Below are positions 19,263 to 59,610 of a stretch of 64,000 nt of DNA, piece by piece (position 1 is the stretch's first letter; each line of letters opens with the position of its first letter). Location: NCBI GenBank assembly GCA_000004985.1, contig GG738908.1. One strand, written 5' to 3'. The translations under genes were made by a program, and so were the position numbers. The stretch comes from Naegleria gruberi (taxonomy: Eukaryota). The notes beneath the pieces were generated by a model. That model was not told where the DNA came from, did not search any database, and saw only the letters and a list, made by a program, of their open reading frames with translations.

Positions 19263-21703
19263 ATGTCTTCAATCCGATCTATTTATTTGCTCTCCACAAA
19301 TCCACTCAAATTGCCAGAATATGTTCGTAATTTTGATCGATATGGTGTTAGGGTAGTCATTCGTGATCCGAAGGATTTTGATACTGATCAGAAAAAGTTG
19401 GAGTTTTTACAACAAAATACATCTGCTATTTGTTTTATTTGTGATCAGATGGATTTGTTCAAGAAGGGAACAAGTGAAAGGGCTAAATTGGAACATTTGG
19501 AATTGGTAGAAAGTAGTACAGAGTTGACAGTTTGGCAATTGAATAAGGAAAAGGATGCTCTTGTCAAGAAGGTTTTCAAGAATGTTCAGTATGGATTTAT
19601 TGATTTATCAAGAAAGAAGCCAAACTTGTTGAGAAAGACTGTATTTGGTTGGGATGATGTATTTGTTAATTTATACTCTGGTAAGAGTAATTTGGATCAA
19701 ATTGAATCAGGTGGCTCGAAGATTTCCTCTCGTGATATGGCTATTTCAGAATATATCAAGGAAAGATTCTACTATTCCAAGAGAAAGGATTTGAATTTTA
19801 CTCCACAAAATATTACTGAGAGAACTATTGATTTTAGAAAGAGTGTCTTGACATATTTTGAAGGACATAATTTGTACAATAATGAGTCAACTAGAAAGTA
19901 CAAGATTACCAATGTTTGGAAAACTGTTGTCAATGATGGTTTGGTATTCAAGTCTTCAAAGAATAGAAGAGAAAATAATTACTTTTCAACTCTTCTTAAT
20001 CCAGCACTTCCACTCGTTTCAAAGAGGGATCCAATTCATGAAACTACATTCCAAATGCATGACTGTGGACATTTTTGCATTCTTGAATTGATTTATACTG
20101 GTTATGAATCTACTGAATTGCAAAAGCTTGTATATATTGCTTTCAGAATGATTAGTGAGGCAGTTACCATGATGATGGCAGACGTTTTATTTATTCATGC
20201 ATTGAAAATGCAAGGTATTGAGTATGACTTTGATTCCAGAAAGATTTATCCTCTCTATTCCAGTTCTAATTTGGATTTTGATAGGGATGGTATTGTTCCA
20301 ACTTTGGAAAAATTGATTAGAGCCAATGTTGATCTTGCCCTCAAGGGAAATGACACCAAATTCAAAGCTATAGCCTCTACAGAAGCTTTAAAGACATTCA
20401 AGGACAAGTAAGTATTGAACGATTTGATATTTTATTGAAAATTTTCATTAGATTTGTACCATTCTTTGTTGAAGATTACAAGTGGAATGCAAACAATTAT
20501 CAAAATATGGAAACTAGAAAGGAGGAGATTAAAAAGTGGTGGGACAGTGTTGAACATGTTCGCCACTATACTCCAGAAATCAGATTCCTTACCATTGATG
20601 AGTTTATTGCACACATGGAAAATTACACTCCATCTGAGCTCACTTCTCTTCACACTGATGAAATTGTAGATATTGTATTTGAAACTGTGTGGCAAGAAAT
20701 GGTCAAGCCAGTATTTGAAAAGGATACAATTGAAGTTTTACCAGAAGAGCGTAGAAATTTCAATACTTTTGTTCGTTACATGTGTGGTCAATTGGCAATC
20801 TTTTCTGCCTTTGAAACTCCAGAATCATCCATCTATCGCGATGGTATTCTCAAGTTTATTAAGGAAAAGGCCAAGACCAAAACAATGACAATTGATGAAA
20901 TTGAGAATGCAGAGACTTTCTTTGGAGCCTATGTTGATTTGTTGGCCCAAAAGAATATGATTACCTATGATGATGCTTCCACCTATAAGGAAATTTATCC
21001 AATGTTTGAACCTTGCTACGTTTTCTATGATGAAAACAAATCCTACTATGATTCTCTTTCGAATGTCTACAAGAGACTCTTCAAGATTCCACACAGAATT
21101 ATTATTATGGGTTTACCAGGTTGCGGAAAGGGCACTCAATCCAAGTTGATTGCTGAAAAGTATGGACTCGTTCATATTTCAACAGGTGATTTGGTTAGAG
21201 AAGTTATCTCTAAACAAACAGAGCTTGGTAAAAAGTGTGAAGCCATCATTAACACTGGTGGTTTGTTGCCTGATGAGTTGATTAATCCAATTTTCTTGGA
21301 TAGAATCCTCAAAGAAGATTGCAAGACTAAGGGTTGGATTCTTGATGGATATCCAAGAACTACTTCAAATCTCGAATTTGTCAGAGCCAATCGTCTTAAT
21401 GTGACAGGTGTCATTTTCCTCACTTTGGACGATGATACAGCCATAGAGAGACAGTGTGGTCGTATTACTGACCCATTGACTGGAGCAATCTATCACAGCA
21501 AGTTCTTACCTCCTACTGAAGAAATCAGAGAACGGTTGGTTAAGCGTGCAACTGATAATGAAGAAAAGGCCAAGATTAGAGTTAAGGTTTATCATGACGA
21601 AATGGATCAAGCATTTGATTGGTTCCCAGAAGAAATCTCTCACAAGATTGATGCCACTCCTTCTCCAGAGGAAGTATTTGAGGCAATTAAAAAGCTCTTG
21701 TAA
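19263..21703 (+). CDS. large protein with a C-terminal adenylate-kinase domain, 2 exons: join(19263..20407,20452..21703)
   Basis: A GTAAGT donor overlaps the stop of ORF1 (20408-20413) and the acceptor is ...cattag (20451). The 44-nt intron joins the two ORFs in frame. The P-loop IIIMGLPGCGKGTQS plus the LID/NMP-binding regions match adenylate kinase. Confidence 0.65.
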
Positions 21704-25269: not shown

Positions 25270-26961
25270 TTAATAGTAAATATCTCTGACACCTTCAGCA
25301 ATTCTTTCAAGGTTCTTCTTGAGTGACTTTCTCTTGGCTTCAGATGGAATGTTCTTTTGTTCTTCTTCAATTCTGTTCCAACCAACAGTTTGAGTTTTTT
25401 CATCGGCATAGTCATGCAAGTATTCAGCAAGTGTCATGATACTGTTAGGATGACACATATTTTGAATGTCACCCTTCTTGGCAATCTTCATAAACTTTTC
25501 ACCAGTACGATTCATTCTGTAACAAGCAGTACAGAAGCTTGGCATGTATCCAGTTTCCAATAATTCACGAATAACTTCACCAGTATTTCTGTGATCACCT
25601 AATGAGAATTGACCCATAGAGTAGTCATCACGCTCGTCTTCCTTCTTTTCATAACCACCAACTGCAGTGTTGGATCCAGCAGACATTTGTGAAATACCAA
25701 GAGAAAGCAATTCTCTTCTCATATCTGGATTTTCTCTTGTGGAGAGAATCATACCAGTGTATGGAACTGAACATCTCAATACAGCAACCAATTTTTTGAA
25801 TTGAGCATCACTGACAAGGTTTGGAACATGAACAGAAACCTCAGAGCCAGATGCTGGTTTCAGTCTTGGAACTGAGATGGTGTGTGGGCCAGCATTCCAA
25901 ACATCACTCAAATGGTTAGCATGTTGCAACATTGCCAACACCTCGAATCTATAGTCATATAAACCAAACAAAGCACCAATACCAACATCATCCAATCCAG
26001 TCACGAAGGCCTTATCCATGGTTTGCAATCTGTCGTAGTATTGTCCTTTAGTACCAAATGGATGCATTTCCTTGTGTGTTTGACGATGATAAGTTTCTTG
26101 GAACAAGATGTATGTTCCGACCTTGTTGGTTGCCTTCAATCTTCTAAAATCAGAAACACTCAATTGAGGAATTTCAACATTGATTCTTCTCACATCACCA
26201 TGAGGTTCAGTCTTGACATCAGCAGCAACTTGCAATTGTCTCATAAAATCTTCAAATGTATACTTTGGACTTTCTCCGCACAACATTAAAATTCTCTTGT
26301 GACCTTGTTTTTGTAAAGCTTCAACTTCTCTAATGACTTCTTCATCAGAGAGGGCTGATCTTGGCATTTCCTTATTAGATCCTCTGTATCCACAATATAA
26401 ACAACTTCCAACACAATAATTACTAGTATACAGTGGTGCAAACAAAACAATTCTGTTTCCGTAAATTAATTCCTTAATATAAAAAGCTGTTGTATATAAA
26501 CTGTTGAGAATATCAGTTTCTTCCTCTGGAATATTCAACAAGGTTGCAGTATCTTCAAGTGACAATCCTTGAATATATTCATCTTTAGGAATGGTTTCAC
26601 AACTTTGTGATTCAACTTCTCCACCATTCTTCTTATTTCGGAGAAGTGGTGATTTGAGCAAGGCTTGATCTCTAGCTCTCTTCAAAATTTGTCGAACGTG
26701 TTCATGATCTTTGGCTTTTTCCTTTGTTTCTTCCATCATTTGATGAATAAGTTTTTCATCAATAATTTTGGTTGGATCTGGAAGTTGTTTCAAGGTTTCT
26801 GGTTCTCTTTCTACGGACCACCTAGCTTGTGATTTAATGGATGTATGGAAATTCTTTGATGCAGATAACAATGAAGCACTACTACCATTAGTAACAGCAC
26901 AACTACTCAAAAGACCTGATCTTCTTCCACCATTAGCAGCCAATCTAGCTAAACTCTTCAT
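25270..26961 (-). CDS. hydG: [FeFe]-hydrogenase maturase HydG (radical-SAM tyrosine lyase) with an N-terminal presequence-like extension
   Basis: Radical-SAM CX3CX2C (CVGSCLYCGYRG) and the HydG-specific C-terminal CX2CX22C (CTACYRMNRTGEKFMKIAKKGDIQNMC). The N-terminus MKSLARLAANGGRRSGLLSS... is Arg/Ser-rich. Confidence 0.85.
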   Translation of the reverse strand: MKSLARLAANGGRRSGLLSSCAVTNGSSASLLSASKNFHTSIKSQARWSVEREPETLKQLPDPTKIIDEKLIHQMMEETKEKAKDHEHVRQILKRARDQALLKSPLLRNKKNGGEVESQSCETIPKDEYIQGLSLEDTATLLNIPEEETDILNSLYTTAFYIKELIYGNRIVLFAPLYTSNYCVGSCLYCGYRGSNKEMPRSALSDEEVIREVEALQKQGHKRILMLCGESPKYTFEDFMRQLQVAADVKTEPHGDVRRINVEIPQLSVSDFRRLKATNKVGTYILFQETYHRQTHKEMHPFGTKGQYYDRLQTMDKAFVTGLDDVGIGALFGLYDYRFEVLAMLQHANHLSDVWNAGPHTISVPRLKPASGSEVSVHVPNLVSDAQFKKLVAVLRCSVPYTGMILSTRENPDMRRELLSLGISQMSAGSNTAVGGYEKKEDERDDYSMGQFSLGDHRNTGEVIRELLETGYMPSFCTACYRMNRTGEKFMKIAKKGDIQNMCHPNSIMTLAEYLHDYADEKTQTVGWNRIEEEQKNIPSEAKRKSLKKNLERIAEGVRDIYY

Positions 26962-27428: not shown

Positions 27429-29003
27429 ATGATGAAGGGATTGAAAAAATCAGCCACGACACTTCTAAGATCGTCCAAGAGTGGTGGTATCAACTTTAAA
27501 GCAGCATCATTGATTTCGGAATTGAAGTTTGTTCCGAATCAATTGTTGATGAGAAATAACTTTTCTACTTCTTTGATACAACAACATGGCGACCACCACC
27601 ATGATCATCATCATCATGATTTGATGGAGGATGAACTGTTACCTACTCCTAAAAAGACAATTATCAATATTAAAGAACCTCCAATACCTACAGAAGTTGA
27701 TTTGGGAGCAATGGGTGAGCAAGTTGCAACAGCATCATCAGCCAATTCTGATCCAAAAGCTGCTGAACGTAAAATGAAAAGAGCAAGAACTGTAAATTAT
27801 CTTCAAAAACCACTCGAACAGAGAATTTTAGTATTGGAAAAGTATTTTGGAGTGAAACCAGAACTTGGAAAACCTGTGGAATTAACAAAGGAACAAATTG
27901 TAAATGTTTTAAATATTGAGGATCATGAGGAACAAAGAGCTCTCTTTGACTATGCCAATTCAATTACTGAATCAATTTATGGCTCAAAGGTTTACTTTAG
28001 AGGTATTATTGAATTTTCAAATGTTTGTCAGAAGGACTGCAATTATTGTGGTATTAGAAAACATATGCAAGTACCAAGATATACAATGCCAAAAGAAGAA
28101 ATAATAGAACAAGCTATTTGGGCCTATGAAAATCATTTTGGATCCATCATGTTACAATCTGGTGAATTGAATACAGAAGGAAGAATCTCAATGTTAGTCG
28201 ATGTCATTCGTGAAATTAAGAAACGTACAGGTGGAGGAGGTCCAGGTGAATGGAATAAGGGACTTGGTATTGCTCTCGGTGTTGGTGAATTGAGTAGAGA
28301 ATCTTATCAGAGATTATATGATGCTGGTGCTCACAGATATCTCCTAAGAATTGAAACATCCAATCCAGAACTCTACTCTAAACTCCATCCTAACGATGAA
28401 AATCACGTATGGGAAGAACGAAAGAAGTGCTTGGAAACTCTAATGGATATTGGATATCAAACTGGTACTGGTGTAATGATTATGATTCCAAATCAAACAG
28501 TTCAAGATTTGGCAGACGATTTACTCTTCTTTAGAAAAATTGGAGCTGATATGATTGGTATGGGACCATACATTGTTCAAGAAGGAACACCAATTGGAAA
28601 GATTTGGATGGAGCAATATGGTCACATGAATGAAGCAGAAAAGAAGGAATATAACAGAGTTCTATTCAGATTGGCTCTGAAGATGACTGCCCTGGCAAGA
28701 ATTTTAATTCCTGAAGCTAATATTTCTGCAACAACAGCTCTTCAAGCCATCAATCCAGCTGGTAGAGAAATAGCTTTAAGTTCTGGTGCCAATATGGTCA
28801 TGCCTATTATTACACCAACCAAGTATCGTGTCAATTATCAACTCTATCAAGGAAAACCTTGTATTGATGATACTAAGGAAGAATGTAAGAGATGTTTAAC
28901 AGATCGTGTTAAATGGTCTAACAAGCAATTGATTTTAGATGAATGGGGTGATCCAATCAGCTACTTTAATAAGAGAAATATGAAAGTACCGAACAAGGAA
29001 TAA
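27429..29003 (+). CDS. hydE: [FeFe]-hydrogenase maturase HydE (radical-SAM, biotin-synthase-like) with an N-terminal extension and a His-rich tract
   Basis: Radical-SAM CX3CX2C (CQKDCNYCGIRKH) and the HydE-type C-terminal CX7CX2C (CIDDTKEECKRC). N-terminus MMKGLKKSATTLLRSSKSGG... followed by HGDHHHDHHHHD. Confidence 0.85.
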   Translation: MMKGLKKSATTLLRSSKSGGINFKAASLISELKFVPNQLLMRNNFSTSLIQQHGDHHHDHHHHDLMEDELLPTPKKTIINIKEPPIPTEVDLGAMGEQVATASSANSDPKAAERKMKRARTVNYLQKPLEQRILVLEKYFGVKPELGKPVELTKEQIVNVLNIEDHEEQRALFDYANSITESIYGSKVYFRGIIEFSNVCQKDCNYCGIRKHMQVPRYTMPKEEIIEQAIWAYENHFGSIMLQSGELNTEGRISMLVDVIREIKKRTGGGGPGEWNKGLGIALGVGELSRESYQRLYDAGAHRYLLRIETSNPELYSKLHPNDENHVWEERKKCLETLMDIGYQTGTGVMIMIPNQTVQDLADDLLFFRKIGADMIGMGPYIVQEGTPIGKIWMEQYGHMNEAEKKEYNRVLFRLALKMTALARILIPEANISATTALQAINPAGREIALSSGANMVMPIITPTKYRVNYQLYQGKPCIDDTKEECKRCLTDRVKWSNKQLILDEWGDPISYFNKRNMKVPNKE

Positions 29004-47543: not shown

Positions 47544-48658
47544 NNNNNNNNNNNNNNNNNNNNNNNNNNNNNNNNNNNNNNNNNNNNNNNNNNNNNNNNN
47601 NNNNNNNNNNNNNNNNNNNNNNNNNNNNNNNNNNNNNNNNNNNNNNNNNNNNNNNNNNNNNNNNNNNNNNNNNNNNNNNNNNNNNNNNNNNNNNNNNNNN
47701 NNNNNNNNNNNNNNNNNNNNNNNNNNNNNNNNNNNNNNNNNNNNNNNNNNNNNNNNNNNNNNNNNNNNNNNNNNNNNNNNNNNNNNNNNNNNNNNNNNNN
47801 NNNNNNNNNNNNNNNNNNNNNNNNNNNNNNNNNNNNNNNNNNNNNNNNNNNNNNNNNNNNNNNNNNNNNNNNNNNNNNNNNNNNNNNNNNNNNNNNNNNN
47901 NNNNNNNNNNNNNNNNNNNNNNNNNNNNNNNNNNNNNNNNNNNNNNNNNNNNNNNNNNNNNNNNNNNNNNNNNNNNNNNNNNNNNNNNNNNNNNNNNNNN
48001 NNNNNNNNNNNNNNNNNNNNNNNNNNNNNNNNNNNNNNNNNNNNNNNNNNNNNNNNNNNNNNNNNNNNNNNNNNNNNNNNNNNNNNNNNNNNNNNNNNNN
48101 NNNNNNNNNNNNNNNNNNNNNNNNNNNNNNNNNNNNNNNNNNNNNNNNNNNNNNNNNNNNNNNNNNNNNNNNNNNNNNNNNNNNNNNNNNNNNNNNNNNN
48201 NNNNNNNNNNNNNNNNNNNNNNNNNNNNNNNNNNNNNNNNNNNNNNNNNNNNNNNNNNNNNNNNNNNNNNNNNNNNNNNNNNNNNNNNNNNNNNNNNNNN
48301 NNNNNNNNNNNNNNNNNNNNNNNNNNNNNNNNNNNNNNNNNNNNNNNNNNNNNNNNNNNNNNNNNNNNNNNNNNNNNNNNNNNNNNNNNNNNNNNNNNNN
48401 NNNNNNNNNNNNNNNNNNNNNNNNNNNNNNNNNNNNNNNNNNNNNNNNNNNNNNNNNNNNNNNNNNNNNNNNNNNNNNNNNNNNNNNNNNNNNNNNNNNN
48501 NNNNNNNNNNNNNNNNNNNNNNNNNNNNNNNNNNNNNNNNNNNNNNNNNNNNNNNNNNNNNNNNNNNNNNNNNNNNNNNNNNNNNNNNNNNNNNNNNNNN
48601 NNNNNNNNNNNNNNNNNNNNNNNNNNNNNNNNNNNNNNNNNNNNNNNNNNNNNNNNNN
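47544..48658. other. assembly gap (1115 N)
   Basis: Run of N. ORFs predicted inside it are artefacts. Confidence 0.95.
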
Positions 48659-50358: not shown

Positions 50359-50408
50359 NNNNNNNNNNNNNNNNNNNNNNNNNNNNNNNNNNNNNNNNNN
50401 NNNNNNNN
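50359..50408. other. assembly gap (50 N) between two tandem element copies
   Basis: Run of N. Confidence 0.95.
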
Positions 50409-53035: not shown

Positions 53036-54712
53036 ATGCTAACAATTGAATCAAAACTCAACAAAACAAAATACACAACAATATCATCCCTTTCAATGTC
53101 CTTTAATTCATCTTCATCATCAACATCATCATCATCATTGCAAAATAATTCCACAATTGTGTACACGAACATGAATCAATTAAATATTGATATTCTCGAG
53201 TATGTGTTTGAATTTATTCCGAGAGGAATGGACAGGAGGAGAATAACACTGGTCAACAAGGCTTTTCACGATTCCAGATACTTGCTGGAGAAACATGAAA
53301 TGGCTCGGATGTGGCACGATGAGAATACTTGTCTTTTAAATCCTCTCGTGGAAGAAGTGGTGAGTGAAGAAGAATTGGAGACGAAACAGGAAGAATTACA
53401 AATTGCCATACCTTTCCATTTGAAATGGTTTGTAACTGGCTTTACGAATGGTAGAAAGGCATGGTCTAATTCTGTTGTGCATGTTAGTAATTTGTTGGGA
53501 CCTGTCAAATCTTGGAAAATGGACACACAGAATGGTTATGTAGTGTTGGGAGTTGATACTCAATTCTCGAACATGTTAACATTGAGTAGGGATGGAAGGA
53601 TTAGAGTGAATAGAGACACGGTTGACTTTTTTGATTTTGTAACGATGGTAAATCGTCCATTGAATCCAGAATTTTACAATTTTGAAAAGTTTAAAGAAAG
53701 AGTGTACTTCCCCTTCTCAATGACTAAGGGATTTTATAGTATTTTGCCAGACAAGTACAAGTTTGTGGACAGGTTGACCATGCATGCTATTGAATTGGAT
53801 CCAAAATGTTATACTTATGTTCCAGATTATATCAAGAGGATGAAACATATTGCCAAGAAGGTGTTTATTAGAAATCCATCCTTGGGCAGATTAATTCCAA
53901 AAGAAATTTTGGAAGATACAGATTTTGTTATGGATATTTACAAATCATCACAATCAATTCTGTTTTATGCTTCTCCTAAAGGAAAATGGTGGAGTGATAG
54001 GGGTTTTATGATTGAGGCATTGAAGCGTGATGTATGTTTAATAAGAAACTGTTCTGAGGAAATACGGACTGATAGAGAAATTATTGACATGATTATTGAC
54101 ATTGATGCAGCAAGTTCTTTTCAATATATTGGAAAATTCAAGGAAGACGAAGATATTGTGAAAACGGCACTATTTAAATCAAACTTCAAGATTCTGCATT
54201 ATATCAATAGTGATTTTCTACTTAATAATAGAGAACTAGTTCTCACAATACTGAAAAGTAATGGAAAGTATATTAACGAAATGCCAGAGTCAATCAAAAA
54301 GGATAGAGAATGCTTTTTCCTAGCTGCAAGAACGCCTTATTTCACATACAAAGTTCAATCTCTTTACAAAATAATAGAGAGTGACAGAGAGGATTTCAAA
54401 TCAATTCTGCAATTTAATCCGGACCTTTTGGAGAAGACCATTTTCAAACACGACAGAGAGCTCCTTAAAGAGGCTCTTTCACACAGTGGATATTGTCTCA
54501 GATTTGCAAGTGAAGAATTCAAGGCAGATAAGGAACTTGTTTTGACAGCCGTAACAAACAATGGATCTGCCCTAATGTATGCTTCTCCAAAACTCAAAGA
54601 TTGTGAAGAGGTTGTCTTGGCAGCTGTAATGAATAATGGAAAAGCAATTCGCTTTGCTTCAAAGAGATTATCATCCAATCAGAAAATTATCAAATCAAGA
54701 AAGTTAAAGTAA
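53036..54712 (+). CDS. DUF4116-type repeat protein with an F-box-like N-terminal motif
   Basis: ATG at 53036. LNIDILEYVFEFIPRGMDRRRITLVNKAF resembles an F-box. C-terminal tandem ~38-aa repeats ...DKELVLTAVTNNGSALMYASPKLKDCEEVVLAAVMNNGKAIRFASKRL fit the DUF4116 pattern. Confidence 0.55.
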   Translation: MLTIESKLNKTKYTTISSLSMSFNSSSSSTSSSSLQNNSTIVYTNMNQLNIDILEYVFEFIPRGMDRRRITLVNKAFHDSRYLLEKHEMARMWHDENTCLLNPLVEEVVSEEELETKQEELQIAIPFHLKWFVTGFTNGRKAWSNSVVHVSNLLGPVKSWKMDTQNGYVVLGVDTQFSNMLTLSRDGRIRVNRDTVDFFDFVTMVNRPLNPEFYNFEKFKERVYFPFSMTKGFYSILPDKYKFVDRLTMHAIELDPKCYTYVPDYIKRMKHIAKKVFIRNPSLGRLIPKEILEDTDFVMDIYKSSQSILFYASPKGKWWSDRGFMIEALKRDVCLIRNCSEEIRTDREIIDMIIDIDAASSFQYIGKFKEDEDIVKTALFKSNFKILHYINSDFLLNNRELVLTILKSNGKYINEMPESIKKDRECFFLAARTPYFTYKVQSLYKIIESDREDFKSILQFNPDLLEKTIFKHDRELLKEALSHSGYCLRFASEEFKADKELVLTAVTNNGSALMYASPKLKDCEEVVLAAVMNNGKAIRFASKRLSSNQKIIKSRKLK

Positions 54713-54768: not shown

Positions 54769-57700
54769 NNNNNNNNNNNNNNNNNNNNNNNNNNNNNNNN
54801 NNNNNNNNNNNNNNNNNNNNNNNNNNNNNNNNNNNNNNNNNNNNNNNNNNNNNNNNNNNNNNNNNNNNNNNNNNNNNNNNNNNNNNNNNNNNNNNNNNNN
54901 NNNNNNNNNNNNNNNNNNNNNNNNNNNNNNNNNNNNNNNNNNNNNNNNNNNNNNNNNNNNNNNNNNNNNNNNNNNNNNNNNNNNNNNNNNNNNNNNNNNN
55001 NNNNNNNNNNNNNNNNNNNNNNNNNNNNNNNNNNNNNNNNNNNNNNNNNNNNNNNNNNNNNNNNNNNNNNNNNNNNNNNNNNNNNNNNNNNNNNNNNNNN
55101 NNNNNNNNNNNNNNNNNNNNNNNNNNNNNNNNNNNNNNNNNNNNNNNNNNNNNNNNNNNNNNNNNNNNNNNNNNNNNNNNNNNNNNNNNNNNNNNNNNNN
55201 NNNNNNNNNNNNNNNNNNNNNNNNNNNNNNNNNNNNNNNNNNNNNNNNNNNNNNNNNNNNNNNNNNNNNNNNNNNNNNNNNNNNNNNNNNNNNNNNNNNN
55301 NNNNNNNNNNNNNNNNNNNNNNNNNNNNNNNNNNNNNNNNNNNNNNNNNNNNNNNNNNNNNNNNNNNNNNNNNNNNNNNNNNNNNNNNNNNNNNNNNNNN
55401 NNNNNNNNNNNNNNNNNNNNNNNNNNNNNNNNNNNNNNNNNNNNNNNNNNNNNNNNNNNNNNNNNNNNNNNNNNNNNNNNNNNNNNNNNNNNNNNNNNNN
55501 NNNNNNNNNNNNNNNNNNNNNNNNNNNNNNNNNNNNNNNNNNNNNNNNNNNNNNNNNNNNNNNNNNNNNNNNNNNNNNNNNNNNNNNNNNNNNNNNNNNN
55601 NNNNNNNNNNNNNNNNNNNNNNNNNNNNNNNNNNNNNNNNNNNNNNNNNNNNNNNNNNNNNNNNNNNNNNNNNNNNNNNNNNNNNNNNNNNNNNNNNNNN
55701 NNNNNNNNNNNNNNNNNNNNNNNNNNNNNNNNNNNNNNNNNNNNNNNNNNNNNNNNNNNNNNNNNNNNNNNNNNNNNNNNNNNNNNNNNNNNNNNNNNNN
55801 NNNNNNNNNNNNNNNNNNNNNNNNNNNNNNNNNNNNNNNNNNNNNNNNNNNNNNNNNNNNNNNNNNNNNNNNNNNNNNNNNNNNNNNNNNNNNNNNNNNN
55901 NNNNNNNNNNNNNNNNNNNNNNNNNNNNNNNNNNNNNNNNNNNNNNNNNNNNNNNNNNNNNNNNNNNNNNNNNNNNNNNNNNNNNNNNNNNNNNNNNNNN
56001 NNNNNNNNNNNNNNNNNNNNNNNNNNNNNNNNNNNNNNNNNNNNNNNNNNNNNNNNNNNNNNNNNNNNNNNNNNNNNNNNNNNNNNNNNNNNNNNNNNNN
56101 NNNNNNNNNNNNNNNNNNNNNNNNNNNNNNNNNNNNNNNNNNNNNNNNNNNNNNNNNNNNNNNNNNNNNNNNNNNNNNNNNNNNNNNNNNNNNNNNNNNN
56201 NNNNNNNNNNNNNNNNNNNNNNNNNNNNNNNNNNNNNNNNNNNNNNNNNNNNNNNNNNNNNNNNNNNNNNNNNNNNNNNNNNNNNNNNNNNNNNNNNNNN
56301 NNNNNNNNNNNNNNNNNNNNNNNNNNNNNNNNNNNNNNNNNNNNNNNNNNNNNNNNNNNNNNNNNNNNNNNNNNNNNNNNNNNNNNNNNNNNNNNNNNNN
56401 NNNNNNNNNNNNNNNNNNNNNNNNNNNNNNNNNNNNNNNNNNNNNNNNNNNNNNNNNNNNNNNNNNNNNNNNNNNNNNNNNNNNNNNNNNNNNNNNNNNN
56501 NNNNNNNNNNNNNNNNNNNNNNNNNNNNNNNNNNNNNNNNNNNNNNNNNNNNNNNNNNNNNNNNNNNNNNNNNNNNNNNNNNNNNNNNNNNNNNNNNNNN
56601 NNNNNNNNNNNNNNNNNNNNNNNNNNNNNNNNNNNNNNNNNNNNNNNNNNNNNNNNNNNNNNNNNNNNNNNNNNNNNNNNNNNNNNNNNNNNNNNNNNNN
56701 NNNNNNNNNNNNNNNNNNNNNNNNNNNNNNNNNNNNNNNNNNNNNNNNNNNNNNNNNNNNNNNNNNNNNNNNNNNNNNNNNNNNNNNNNNNNNNNNNNNN
56801 NNNNNNNNNNNNNNNNNNNNNNNNNNNNNNNNNNNNNNNNNNNNNNNNNNNNNNNNNNNNNNNNNNNNNNNNNNNNNNNNNNNNNNNNNNNNNNNNNNNN
56901 NNNNNNNNNNNNNNNNNNNNNNNNNNNNNNNNNNNNNNNNNNNNNNNNNNNNNNNNNNNNNNNNNNNNNNNNNNNNNNNNNNNNNNNNNNNNNNNNNNNN
57001 NNNNNNNNNNNNNNNNNNNNNNNNNNNNNNNNNNNNNNNNNNNNNNNNNNNNNNNNNNNNNNNNNNNNNNNNNNNNNNNNNNNNNNNNNNNNNNNNNNNN
57101 NNNNNNNNNNNNNNNNNNNNNNNNNNNNNNNNNNNNNNNNNNNNNNNNNNNNNNNNNNNNNNNNNNNNNNNNNNNNNNNNNNNNNNNNNNNNNNNNNNNN
57201 NNNNNNNNNNNNNNNNNNNNNNNNNNNNNNNNNNNNNNNNNNNNNNNNNNNNNNNNNNNNNNNNNNNNNNNNNNNNNNNNNNNNNNNNNNNNNNNNNNNN
57301 NNNNNNNNNNNNNNNNNNNNNNNNNNNNNNNNNNNNNNNNNNNNNNNNNNNNNNNNNNNNNNNNNNNNNNNNNNNNNNNNNNNNNNNNNNNNNNNNNNNN
57401 NNNNNNNNNNNNNNNNNNNNNNNNNNNNNNNNNNNNNNNNNNNNNNNNNNNNNNNNNNNNNNNNNNNNNNNNNNNNNNNNNNNNNNNNNNNNNNNNNNNN
57501 NNNNNNNNNNNNNNNNNNNNNNNNNNNNNNNNNNNNNNNNNNNNNNNNNNNNNNNNNNNNNNNNNNNNNNNNNNNNNNNNNNNNNNNNNNNNNNNNNNNN
57601 NNNNNNNNNNNNNNNNNNNNNNNNNNNNNNNNNNNNNNNNNNNNNNNNNNNNNNNNNNNNNNNNNNNNNNNNNNNNNNNNNNNNNNNNNNNNNNNNNNNN

Positions 57701-57800
57701 NNNNNNNNNNNNNNNNNNNNNNNNNNNNNNNNNNNNNNNNNNNNNNNNNNNNNNNNNNNNNNNNNNNNNNNNNNNNNNNNNNNNNNNNNNNNNNNNNNNN
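54769..57800. other. assembly gap (3032 N)
   Basis: Run of N. The flanking ORFs of X are artefacts. Confidence 0.95.
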
Positions 57801-58445
57801 GCTGAAGAATTATTAAGCCAAGAGTTTACTCCTCGTCTTTTTACAAAATTAAGCACGAAATATGATGTTGGTGTTGTGCCAAGTATGTGTACAGCATGTC
57901 GAGATGACAGAATCAACTGCTTTAAAGAAAGACCAATTTGTTCACATTGTCTTGAGAAAGGAATTCCTTGCATTTATCCCAAATTTCTTAGGTTAGCTCG
58001 TAAGTATTCCTATTACAAATGTATGTAATTTATTATTTGCAAAGCATGTGTTCCTTGTACGCAACACAGAAGCAAAGTCTGCAATAGACAAAAACCATCT
58101 TGTAACCGTTGTGCAAAAGGTGAATGTTTTTATTTCACTTCAGATACAGGTCTAATAATTGGTGATATGAAAATACGGGCAGCCAAAGAGCTCTATGCCA
58201 ATTTGGATGCAAAAGAACTAGAAGAGCCAAAAGAGAATGAACAAATGTCTGTTTCTCAGACTTTTGAAGGTTCAGATAGTGAGGATAACGATGAATCATC
58301 AATGTTGGAAATTGAGGAAAACAAAAAGAATGCATTAAAGCTTAAGGAGCAAATTCACAAGTGGAAAAAAATAGTGCAGGAAGAAAAGGAATTGAATAAC
58401 AAGAAATTGAACCAGTTGAATTATATTATTTCCGAGTTTAAATGA
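57801..58445 (+). CDS. 3' part of a gene encoding two tandem Zn2Cys6 (GAL4-type) binuclear-cluster motifs and a coiled-coil tail: join(57801..57999,58045..58445); the 5' end lies in the gap
   Basis: The frame runs out of the gap. CTACRDDRINCFKERPICSHCLEKGIPC fits CX2CX6CX6CX2CX6C. A 45-nt GTAAGT..aaag intron follows, then CVPCTQHRSKVCNRQKPSCNRCAKGEC and an E/K-rich coiled coil. Confidence 0.55.
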
Positions 58446-58449
58446 ATTA

Positions 58450-59610
58450 TGATCATTTATTACCAATAGAAAGTATATTATTGACAAGGAAATAATATTC
58501 GAAGCGCTTCCTGATACAACCCTGATATCATTGGATTTGTGTGGTGATGGTACTAAGCTAGGTTGTGGTTTAACACTATAATACTGTGGAGTTGGGGAGT
58601 AGTAAGGTTTTGGAGATGGTTGTGGATTAATAGATGGCTGAGGAGTTGGGGGCTTTATGGAAGGTGGAGCTGGTGGATTGGTATCATTTGATGGGTTAGT
58701 ATCATTTAATATCATTTGCATTTGGTGGCAACAATCCAATTTCATCAAATGGAATTAATGTAAAATTAACACCATAGCTTGAGCTTACAATTGTAAAGCT
58801 CAAAGCAGTGATGTTGGCATAAATTGTTTTTGGAACATTGAAAGTATTGTTCGTGTAGGTACTGTACTGATAGACAGAAGAATCAATGGATGTTTATGCC
58901 TTTCCACTAATCAAATTGAATCTGATATCATTTCCCTTTGGAGCTCTTAAAGATTTCAAAAAGATTTAGTTGAAAAATATACAAGAAGTGCCACCAGCTC
59001 CTGGACCTTTAATTCTATAAACCAAGTTGTGCTTATCTTGTTGAGTGAAATAACATGATTAGCATTTGCCACTCCACAAGATAGCTACATGGTCAGCATT
59101 GTAGAGATAGTTTTGAGTGACAAGACCACCAACACCTTGTAAGTGAATGCCAGCTCTGTATGCTTTCCGATTCTTGAAAAAAAGACATTATTGTTAGAAA
59201 CATCAATAAAACTTGGAAGGAGAGTTCTTCTAACACCTCCATTAATACACCTTGTCCATTCTCATAAATGACATTATTGACAATTTTACTTCCACCATGA
59301 CATGCAGTAATCCAAATTGCATTGCTACCAGTATTTGATTTGATTGCTGTACCAGTTGTCATTTCCAATTCTATTCCTTACGTAGCAACTTTTGGTTTCA
59401 GTAGAACATTTGATTGAATGCTAACAATGTCTTCCACTGCCTCAGCCCAATCCCAATACAAATGTCCAGCAAGGAATGGCCACTTTTCTCTATTTTCACA
59501 TTTTGGATGAAGCATGTTGAAACCATTTGGATTATTCATGGATGTAACATTTTGCACACAAAGGAAGAGGAAAACCTCCTGTCACTTTCAATGACGGTCT
59601 CCAAATAGTT
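58450..59610 (-). pseudogene. decayed or fragmented gene for a secreted Pro/Thr-linker protein with pectin-lyase-like beta-helix segments
   Basis: The minus strand has coding-like stretches in three frames broken by stops and shifts: ...EKWPFLAGHLYWDWAEAVEDIVSIQSNVLLKPKVAT*, TGTAIKSNTGSNAIWITACHGGSKIVNNVIYENGQGV, NNTFNVPKTIYANITALSFTIVSSSYGVNFTLIPFDE..., and a PSPKPYYSPTPQYY linker. It could instead be a multi-intron gene. Confidence 0.3.

What the first reader, a model, noticed from the sequence alone, without database searches (positions are those of the whole stretch)
57801..58445. Tandem Zn2Cys6 binuclear-cluster (GAL4-type) motifs in an amoeboid protist gene
The first motif is a textbook CX2CX6CX6CX2CX6C (CTACRDDRINCFKERPICSHCLEKGIPC). 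A second, variant motif (CVPCTQHRSKVCNRQKPSCNRCAKGEC) follows after a 45-nt intron, then a coiled coil that could mediate dimerisation as in fungal Zn-cluster regulators. This fold is overwhelmingly fungal, so occurrences elsewhere bear on its origin. The 5' end lies in the 3-kb gap.
Basis: partly seen in the sequence, partly recalled or inferred. Interest (0 to 1): 0.5.

Follow-up and report, generated by a model that had tools for sequence, protein, structure and literature searches.

The report
Unannotated Naegleria zinc-cluster gene, 3' half
This is the 3' part of an unannotated Naegleria gruberi gene whose protein has one genuine GAL4-type zinc-cluster domain followed by a diverged copy and a long C-terminal helix; zinc-cluster proteins were already known to be numerous in this amoeba, so it is one more member, though with an unusual layout.

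Summary
The window is a Naegleria gruberi NEG-M scaffold. Motif 1 (57888-57971) has the canonical CX2CX6CX6CX2CX6C spacing. It scores 35.4 bits on Pfam Zn_clus (cutoff 21), and its predicted fold matches only GAL4, HAP1, PPR1 and similar structures. Motif 2 (58047-58127, CX2CX7CX6CX2CX4C) looks like a diverged duplicate. It scores below the Pfam cutoff (18.9 bits), breaks the canonical spacing twice and did not fold confidently. All six of its Cys, and the odd X7 and X4 spacings, are nevertheless kept in a roughly 50%-identical paralogue.

The 45-nt intron is real. The paralogue has a 44-nt intron at the same position and phase, and there it must be spliced to keep the frame. A 94%-identical metagenome contig closes the gap by proxy. 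The full protein is 585 aa: an N-terminal DNMT1-type replication-foci domain (RFD), an acidic and basic linker, Zn_clus, the variant cluster, and a C-terminal helix.

The window gene is unannotated. Its annotated paralogue EFC36386 has the canonical cluster spliced out of its gene model.

Zn2Cys6 in Naegleria is not new: Pfam already recorded 71 such proteins (Scazzocchio 2014). My verdict is an ordinary new member of a known expansion. The RFD fusion is a modestly interesting architecture that I did not find described, but architecture databases could not be queried.

The parts
54769..57800 (.). Assembly gap (3032 N) that hides the 5' part of the gene. By proxy this is about 1158 nt of CDS: the start codon, the RFD domain, and the acidic and basic linker.
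   Evidence: Orthologous contig L002 aligns to the window from 57801 onward (L002:1198), and its ATG is at L002:40.
57804..57999 (+). Visible 3' end of exon 1. It ends in phase 1 (C|GTAAGTATT).
   Evidence: Open frame. It differs from L002 at 3 of 196 nt.
57888..57971 (+). Motif 1: canonical Zn2Cys6 binuclear-cluster domain, CX2CX6CX6CX2CX6C.
   Evidence: Pfam Zn_clus 35.4 bits, E = 1e-8. AlphaFold pLDDT about 85, with two short helices starting at the CX2C pairs. Foldseek PDB hits include GAL4 1d66 (rmsd 1.9 A over 39 columns) and PPR1 (0.9 A over 31). A profile of the orthologue and paralogue, which includes this domain, hits GAL4, LAC9, HAP1 and PPR1 in PDB sequences.
57883..57884 (+). Possible alternative 5' splice site (A|GTATGT). 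Used with the acceptor at 58044 it would remove motif 1 in frame (162 nt).
   Evidence: The equivalent donor is the one used in the JGI gene model of the paralogue EFC36386. Inference only; no RNA data.
58000..58044 (+). 45-nt intron, GTAAGTATT...GCAAAG, containing an in-frame TAA.
   Evidence: The same intron, with one substitution, is in L002. The paralogue L001 has a 44-nt intron at the same position and phase with the same GTAAGTATT donor, and there splicing is required to keep the frame.
58045..58445 (+). Exon 2, including the TGA stop at 58443-58445.
   Evidence: An exhaustive phmmer search finds only two relatives.
58047..58127 (+). Motif 2: variant Cys6 motif, CX2CX7CX6CX2CX4C, probably a diverged duplicate of motif 1.
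   Evidence: Pfam Zn_clus 18.9 bits, below the cutoff of 21, matching only profile positions 1-26 of 39. hhalign against motif 1 gives P = 1.3e-4. All six Cys and the X7 and X4 spacings are conserved in the paralogue. AlphaFold pLDDT is about 45.
58128..58208 (+). Segment strongly conserved between paralogues, FYFTSDTGLIIGDMKIRAAKELYANLD. It is a linker plus a short helix, and a candidate equivalent of the GAL4 linker and dimerisation element.
   Evidence: Invariant columns. Helix at exon-2 residues 37-54, at low confidence. The functional role is inferred.
58209..58292 (+). Acidic, poorly conserved and probably disordered linker.
   Evidence: pLDDT below 50. Gapped alignment.
58293..58439 (+). 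C-terminal 49-residue helix, a possible coiled coil.
   Evidence: AlphaFold helix 83-131, pLDDT above 90. Six of eight a/d positions are hydrophobic in the best 28-residue window, which is not significant against shuffles.

Best explanation
The region is the 3' third of an unannotated protein-coding gene of Naegleria gruberi NEG-M. Its first 1.16 kb or so of coding sequence falls in the assembly gap. Judged from a 94%-identical orthologous contig, the protein is about 585 aa long. Its parts run in this order: an N-terminal DNMT1-type replication-foci domain (RFD); an acidic linker with lysine- and arginine-rich nuclear-localisation-like stretches; one canonical Zn2Cys6 binuclear-cluster domain; ten residues later, across a 45-nt phase-1 intron, a diverged second Cys6 module; a conserved linker and short helix; an acidic spacer; and a long C-terminal helix. 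It has one paralogue in the same genome (EFC36386, NAEGRDRAFT_54422), so this is a small family seen so far only in N. gruberi-like amoebae. The most likely mechanism is inferred, not shown. I propose a nuclear protein that binds DNA through the canonical cluster, with the variant cluster acting either as a second DNA-contacting or structural zinc module. It probably self-associates through its helices. The RFD would connect the bound site to chromatin or replication-coupled partners, as RFD domains do in DNMT1 and in fission-yeast Raf2. It belongs to the already documented expansion of Zn_clus proteins in Naegleria.
For: Organism: window ORFs are identical to N. gruberi NEG-M proteins EFC38395, EFC38347 and EFC38400 on a 259-kb scaffold. 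Motif 1: above the Pfam cutoff, and its fold matches only Zn2Cys6 structures. Chance: no Cys6 pattern in 300 shuffles. Gene model: intron position and phase are shared with the paralogue, whose 44-nt intron shifts the frame unless spliced. The donor GTAAGTATT also occurs at a candidate 44-nt intron in the adenylate kinase gene of the same window. Full length by proxy: L002 has an uninterrupted 585-codon CDS with an in-frame stop just upstream of its ATG. It scores RFD 29.0 bits (cutoff 22) and Zn_clus 30 bits. The paralogue P0017 scores RFD 35.7 bits. Conservation: all 12 Cys are invariant between paralogues that are about 50% identical. Between the strains, the two motifs differ only by R33K and two synonymous changes. 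Not annotated: neither the spliced protein nor a profile finds a NEG-M protein for this locus. Known background: 71 Zn_clus proteins in N. gruberi (PMC5611559).
Against: There is no RNA evidence for expression or for which donor site is used. Synonymous versus non-synonymous differences between the strains are only 5 versus 8 codons, so purifying selection is weakly shown outside the zinc motifs. In motif 1, the positions that carry DNA-contacting lysines in GAL4 read R-D-D-R-I-N, with two acidic residues; the paralogue has HRKRIM. The comparison with GAL4 contacts rests on my own knowledge. Motif 2 fails the Pfam cutoff and was not folded. The RFD lies in the gap and is inferred for the window only from the orthologue. 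A PDB sequence profile search did not recover DNMT1. The coiled coil is not statistically supported. DNA binding, zinc binding and dimerisation are all untested.
Confidence: 0.75

Rival explanations
1. The canonical cluster (motif 1) is removed from the mature mRNA by a longer intron (57883-58044, 162 nt, in frame), as in the JGI model of the paralogue. The protein would then carry only the variant Cys6 motif, or alternative splicing would produce both isoforms.
For: The annotated paralogue EFC36386 reads ...AIP|ACIPC..., which corresponds to a 158-nt intron in L001 that removes motif 1. An equivalent in-frame donor, A|GTATGT, exists in the window.
Against: The segment that would be removed is an open frame in the window, in L002 and in L001. 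All six Cys are kept at about 50% identity, and the KERPICSHCLE region has a 48-nt stretch of 85% nucleotide identity between paralogues. The true short introns share only their splice-site ends when read side by side. Motif 1 scores 30-35 bits on Zn_clus in all three loci. The same annotation also draws a 230-nt intron in the adenylate kinase gene, where an open frame runs on to a 44-nt GTAAGTATT intron. This suggests the JGI models may over-extend introns.
Confidence: 0.12
2. Motif 2 is not a Zn2Cys6 binuclear cluster. It is a different Cys-rich module, for example one that binds a single zinc, or a structural or protein-binding knuckle. The protein would then have one DNA-binding cluster, not a tandem pair.
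For: It scores 18.9 bits, below the cutoff of 21, and matches only profile positions 1-26 of 39. It is not detected in the paralogue at E <= 1. Its spacings of X7 and X4 lie outside the canonical X6 and X6-8. AlphaFold pLDDT is about 45.
Against: It still has six Cys in a CX2C...C...CX2C...C layout, and a K/R-x-x-P before the fourth Cys as in motif 1. hhalign aligns five of the six Cys to motif 1 with P = 1.3e-4. Zn_clus is the only Pfam family it resembles at E < 0.01. All six Cys are conserved.
Confidence: 0.4
3. The locus is a decaying pseudogene or a non-expressed gene fragment next to a gap.
For: It is not annotated. The 5' end is unavailable. Non-synonymous differences outnumber synonymous ones between the strains (8 versus 5).
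Against: The orthologue in a strain that differs at about 6% of nucleotides keeps an intact 585-codon frame, the same intron and the same stop codon. Changes inside the zinc motifs are synonymous or conservative. A paralogue with the same architecture is retained. Lack of annotation is explained by the gap.
Confidence: 0.05
4. The zinc-cluster sequence is fungal contamination or a recent transfer from a fungus.
For: The domain is overwhelmingly fungal.
Against: The region is flanked on the same scaffold by Naegleria genes and has the same GC content of about 35%. Its intron has the GTAAGTATT donor also seen elsewhere in the window. Its only relatives among 1.84 billion representative proteins are N. 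gruberi-like sequences. It has no fungal middle-homology region.
Confidence: 0.01

Closest known systems
Fungal Zn(II)2Cys6 regulators (GAL4, LAC9, HAP1, PPR1, PUT3, LEU3; Pfam PF00172)
   Same: Motif 1 has the canonical six-Cys spacing, scores above the Pfam cutoff, and its predicted fold superposes on GAL4, HAP1 and PPR1. Helical segments follow the clusters and could mediate self-association.
   Different: The protein has no Fungal_trans middle-homology region. The cluster sits near the C-terminus rather than the N-terminus. A second, non-canonical Cys6 module follows after ten residues. The confident helix is about 55 residues downstream of motif 2. Acidic residues occupy two positions that are basic in GAL4 (my own knowledge). 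The N-terminal domain is an RFD. The host is a heterolobosean.
The Naegleria gruberi Zn_clus expansion (71 proteins in Pfam, according to Scazzocchio 2014, PMC5611559)
   Same: Same organism and same domain. That review already notes that these proteins look unlike fungal ones and have varied architectures.
   Different: This gene is not among them, because it is unannotated at a gap. Its paralogue EFC36386 is recorded with the RFD only, because its gene model splices out the cluster.
RFD/RFTS-domain proteins: DNMT1, and fission-yeast Raf2 of the CLRC complex (PMC4121317)
   Same: The orthologue and the paralogue have an N-terminal domain above the Pfam DNMT1-RFD cutoff (29.0 and 35.7 bits). 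Like Raf2, the RFD is not attached to a methyltransferase. N. gruberi has a conserved DNMT1 (bioRxiv 10.1101/2025.04.15.648976).
   Different: There are no methyltransferase or BAH domains. A PDB sequence profile search did not recover DNMT1. I found no description of an RFD fused to a Zn2Cys6 domain, although architecture databases could not be queried.

Membership tests
Zn2Cys6 binuclear cluster (Pfam PF00172), motif 1 | Six Cys spaced CX2CX6CX5-12CX2CX6-8C | tested here: met
   CX2CX6CX6CX2CX6C at 57888-57971.
Zn2Cys6 binuclear cluster (Pfam PF00172), motif 1 | Profile score above the curated cutoff | tested here: met
   35.4 bits against a cutoff of 21, E = 1.1e-8. The orthologue and paralogue score 30 bits.
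Zn2Cys6 binuclear cluster (Pfam PF00172), motif 1 | Fold: two short helices, each starting at a CX2C, superposable on solved Zn2Cys6 domains | tested here: met
   The AlphaFold model has helices at residues 30-35 and 47-52 with pLDDT about 85. All 27 Foldseek PDB hits are Zn2Cys6 proteins, with rmsd 0.9-1.9 A for the best. Foldseek E-values are weak (0.015) because the domain is small.
Zn2Cys6 binuclear cluster (Pfam PF00172), motif 1 | Binds two Zn(II) through six thiolates, and binds DNA at CGG-type half-sites | not testable with these tools
   This needs metal analysis and DNA-binding assays.
Zn2Cys6 binuclear cluster (Pfam PF00172), motif 2 | Canonical Cys spacing | tested here: not met
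   CX2CX7CX6CX2CX4C in the window and CX2CX7CX5CX2CX4C in the paralogue. The first loop is one residue too long and the last loop two too short.
Zn2Cys6 binuclear cluster (Pfam PF00172), motif 2 | Profile score above the curated cutoff | tested here: not met
   18.9 bits against a cutoff of 21 (E = 0.0017), covering profile positions 1-26 of 39 only. The paralogue's motif 2 is not detected at E <= 1. Homology to motif 1 is suggested by hhalign, P = 1.3e-4.
Zn2Cys6 binuclear cluster (Pfam PF00172), motif 2 | Zn2Cys6 fold | tested here: inconclusive
   AlphaFold pLDDT is about 45 from a two-sequence alignment.
Fungal zinc-cluster transcription factor architecture | N-terminal cluster, then a linker and coiled coil directly after it, then the Fungal_trans middle-homology region | tested here: not met
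   No Fungal_trans hit. The clusters lie at residues 416-480 of 585. The confident helix is about 55 residues after motif 2, and the heptad test is not significant.
DNMT1-RFD (Pfam PF12047) | Profile score above the curated cutoff | tested here: met
   29.0 bits for the L002 orthologue and 35.7 bits for the paralogue P0017, against a cutoff of 22. This was met only in the proxies; in the window this part lies in the gap. No PDB DNMT1 sequence was recovered, and no structure prediction was available for this part.

The most novel reading that the evidence does not exclude
A family seen so far only in N. gruberi-like amoebae, in which a DNMT1-type replication-foci domain is fused to a tandem zinc-cluster DNA-binding module. 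It could act as a sequence-specific adaptor that brings replication-coupled chromatin or DNA-methylation machinery (N. gruberi has DNMT1 and 5mC) to defined loci. Alternative 5' splice sites might switch the canonical cluster in or out. The conserved CX2CX7CX5-6CX2CX4C module would then be a new structural variant of the binuclear cluster.
Probability: 0.12. Interest if true: 0.55.

Novelty: new member of a known kind. Interest (0 to 1): 0.3.

Why it matters
The headline is already known. Zn2Cys6 domains exist outside fungi and are numerous in Naegleria, and whether that reflects ancient origin or transfer remains open (PMC5611559, PMC5415576).

This locus adds three smaller things. First, it corrects the annotation: there is an unannotated gene at a gap, and a paralogue (EFC36386) whose model probably deletes its canonical zinc cluster. 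Database counts of Naegleria Zn_clus proteins and architectures are therefore slight underestimates. Second, it shows an RFD-plus-zinc-cluster architecture that links a DNA-binding module to a chromatin or replication-type domain, in an organism that has DNMT1 and Tet enzymes (the Tet enzymes are from my own knowledge). Third, it shows a conserved non-canonical Cys6 spacing that would be worth a metal-binding test. None of these changes current views on the origin of the fold.

Tried and rejected
- **Word-indexed homologue searches.** Searches with the spliced 198-aa fragment and with the 98-aa two-cluster core found nothing, not even the query itself. This was informative only in showing that the gene is unannotated.
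- **JGI metagenome scans.** Two scans, one with the whole-protein profile and one with the exon-2 profile, found no relatives.
- **Paralogue DNA.** The NEG-M DNA for the paralogue P0017 could not be fetched. L001, from a related strain, was used instead.
- **RFD check against PDB.** A PDB sequence profile search did not recover DNMT1.
- **Literature.** Searches pairing Naegleria with Zn2Cys6 or Zn_clus, and PF12047 with PF00172, returned nothing. The 'binuclear' hits in the Aravind-group papers were irrelevant. de Mendoza 2013 is not held.
- **Heptad scoring.** The score of the C-terminal helix did not exceed shuffles, so 'coiled coil' is kept as plausible and not treated as shown.
- **Domain phylogeny.** A phylogeny of the roughly 30-residue domain against fungal and amoebozoan sequences was not attempted. 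The tools gave no way to collect those sequences, and the domain is too short for resolution.
- **Fungal contamination.** Considered and rejected.

Full report
**What the sequence shows**

The window has a 3032-N gap at 54769-57800. The frame starting at 57804 is open immediately after the gap. It encodes ...STKYDVGVVPSM-CTACRDDRINCFKERPICSHCLEKGIPC-IYPKFLRLA. An in-frame TAA follows inside a 45-nt GT..AG segment (58000-58044). The frame then continues as CVPCTQHRSKVCNRQKPSCNRCAKGEC-FYFTSDTG... to a TGA at 58443-58445.

The two Cys6 strings lie at 57888-57971 and 58047-58127. They are the only matches to a strict or relaxed Zn2Cys6 pattern in all six frames of the 64-kb window. Three hundred shuffles of the window produced none.

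**Organism**

Five window ORFs are identical to Naegleria gruberi NEG-M proteins on a 259,034-bp scaffold. Among them are HydG (EFC38395), a second [Fe]-hydrogenase maturase (EFC38347) and the SPRY-domain protein EFC38400. 'Amoeboid protist' is therefore correct, but the host is a heterolobosean amoeboflagellate and not an amoebozoan.

**Motif 1**

- Pfam Zn_clus scores 35.4 bits against a gathering cutoff of 21, E = 1e-8.
- A single-sequence AlphaFold model places two short helices at the two CX2C pairs, with pLDDT about 85.
- All 27 Foldseek PDB hits are Zn2Cys6 proteins: GAL4, HAP1, LAC9, PPR1, PUT3, LEU3, Pho7, AlcR and Cep3. The rmsd is 0.9-1.9 A for the best hits. E-values are weak (0.015) because the domain is small.
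- A PDB sequence profile search, using a profile of the orthologue and the paralogue that includes this domain, finds GAL4, LAC9, HAP1 and PPR1.

Motif 1 is a genuine member of the family.

**Motif 2**

The spacing is CX2CX7CX6CX2CX4C. The first loop is one residue longer, and the last loop two residues shorter, than the canonical range.

- On its own it scores 18.9 bits, below the cutoff, and matches only the first 26 of 39 profile positions.
- The paralogue's version is not detected at all.
- AlphaFold gave no confident fold (pLDDT about 45).
- In its favour, hhalign aligns five of its six Cys to motif 1 with one inserted residue (P = 1.3e-4, probability 54%).
- All six Cys, and the unusual X7 and X4 spacings, are conserved in a paralogue that is only about 50% identical.

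I read it as a diverged internal duplicate under constraint. Whether it still forms a binuclear cluster is open.

**Relatives and the gap**

An exhaustive phmmer search with exon 2 against 1.84 billion representative proteins found only two relatives. Both come from one metagenome run, ERR1078381.

Contig L002 (2235 bp) is 93.9% identical to window 57801-58874 and carries the complete gene:
- The ATG is at L002:40, with an in-frame stop just upstream.
- The same 45-nt intron is present, with one substitution.
- The same stop codon is used, giving 585 codons.

This closes the gap by proxy. About 1158 nt of CDS are hidden in the gap.

Pfam on the full protein gives an N-terminal DNMT1-RFD domain (29.0 bits against a cutoff of 22, residues 37-173) plus Zn_clus. 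Between them lies an acidic linker with stretches resembling nuclear-localisation signals (NNKKRKTHVKNQKKKRMKK).

**The paralogue**

Contig L001 carries a paralogue. Its counterpart in NEG-M is the annotated protein EFC36386 / NAEGRDRAFT_54422 (583 aa, RFD 35.7 bits). No NEG-M protein exists for the window locus itself, so the window gene is unannotated.

**Intron**

In L001 the intron sits at the same codon position and phase, with the same GTAAGTATT donor. It is 44 nt long, so it must be spliced to keep the frame. This is good evidence that the 45-nt intron in the window is real. A candidate 44-nt intron with the same donor occurs in the adenylate kinase gene of this window.

The JGI model of EFC36386 uses a donor further upstream and so deletes the canonical cluster (...AIP|ACIPC...). 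An equivalent in-frame donor exists in the window at 57883.

The deleted segment is an open frame in all three loci. It keeps all six Cys and scores 30-35 bits on Zn_clus. I therefore consider the JGI model a probable mis-annotation. Alternative splicing cannot be excluded without RNA data.

**Selection**

The window and L002 differ at 15 coding positions, giving 5 synonymous and 8 non-synonymous codon differences. Within the two motifs there are only R33K and two synonymous changes. The non-synonymous changes cluster in the C-terminal tail. This is weak as a test. The intact 585-codon frame, in a genome of about 35% GC, argues more strongly against a pseudogene.

**C-terminal region**

After motif 2 comes a segment that is nearly invariant between paralogues (YFTSDxGLxIGxMKIxAxKELYA). 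Its helix is predicted only weakly. An acidic, disordered spacer follows, and then a 49-residue helix with pLDDT above 90.

The best 28-residue heptad register has 6 of 8 a/d positions hydrophobic, which is no better than shuffles (61 of 500). A dimerising coiled coil is plausible but not shown. Unlike in GAL4, the confident helix is not adjacent to the cluster.

**Mechanism (inferred)**

I propose a nuclear protein that binds DNA through the canonical cluster and possibly through the second module, which lies only ten residues away. It would self-associate through its helices and use the RFD to engage chromatin or replication-linked partners.

The precedents for the RFD are DNMT1 and fission-yeast Raf2, whose RFTS domain binds Cul4 in the CLRC complex (PMC4121317). 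N. gruberi has a conserved DNMT1 and low-level 5mC (bioRxiv 10.1101/2025.04.15.648976).

One caveat is that motif 1 has two acidic residues (RDDRIN) where, from my own knowledge, GAL4 has DNA-contacting lysines. The paralogue has HRKRIM at these positions.

**Comparison with what is known**

Zn2Cys6 outside fungi is already documented, for Naegleria in particular. Scazzocchio 2014 (PMC5611559) reports 71 Zn_clus proteins in N. gruberi from Pfam. He notes that they look unlike fungal ones and have varied architectures, and he cites Iyer et al. 2008. Shelest 2017 (PMC5415576) describes the patchy non-fungal distribution, with ancient origin versus horizontal transfer left open.

This locus does not change that picture. 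Its contributions are an annotation correction, an RFD-plus-zinc-cluster architecture that I did not find described (a very limited check), and a conserved variant Cys6 spacing.

**Limits of the family**

No relative was found in the N. fowleri or N. lovaniensis proteomes, although both are present in the collection, nor in JGI metagenomes. Unannotated genes in those genomes could not be searched.

**Verdict**

This is a new, unannotated member of a known expansion, of low to moderate interest.

Noticed in passing
window 19263-21703 (+): The annotated adenylate kinase EFC38346 (736 aa) uses a 230-nt intron (20222-20451). However, the upstream ORF stays open to 20411, and a 44-nt GTAAGTATT...TTAG intron (20408-20451) would also keep the frame and add 62 codons. 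This may be an over-long intron in the JGI model, the same pattern as in EFC36386.
   Followed up: partly
NEG-M paralogue EFC36386 / NAEGRDRAFT_54422 (P0017); L001:77-234: The annotated gene model splices out a conserved canonical Zn_clus domain, so databases record this protein with the RFD only. The short 44-nt intron (L001:191-234) restores the domain.
   Followed up: yes
window 25270-26961 (-) and 27429-29003 (+): The [FeFe]-hydrogenase maturase genes HydG and a second radical-SAM maturase (HydE-like) lie next to each other, divergently oriented. Both are already annotated in N. gruberi.
   Followed up: no
window 58450-59600 (-): On the minus strand, a string of short ORFs with frame breaks ends in a proline-rich segment (PPAPPSIKPPTPQPSINPQPSPKPYY). 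Its ORF overlaps the 3' end of the zinc-cluster gene by about 110 nt. No Pfam hit and no exact match in the protein collection. The alignment to L002 across this region contains three gap openings; their size and position were not measured. This is probably an intron-containing or unannotated gene.
   Followed up: partly
L001:1-23: The Logan contig begins with Illumina adapter sequence (CCTACACGACGCTCTTCCGATCT), so its first 23 nt are not genomic.
   Followed up: yes
window 53036-54712 (+): A 558-aa protein with at least five DUF4116 repeats (Pfam 166.9 bits) ends 56 nt before the gap. Its exact sequence is not in the protein collection.
   Followed up: no
window 47544-48658 and 50359-50408: There are two further assembly gaps (1115 and 50 N). 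They explain the apparent low-GC stretch at 46-50 kb in the composition profile.
   Followed up: yes
L002, L001, L003 (run ERR1078381, PRJEB11402): A single metagenome run contains an N. gruberi-like strain about 94% identical to NEG-M at this locus. It could serve to patch other gaps in the NEG-M assembly.
   Followed up: partly
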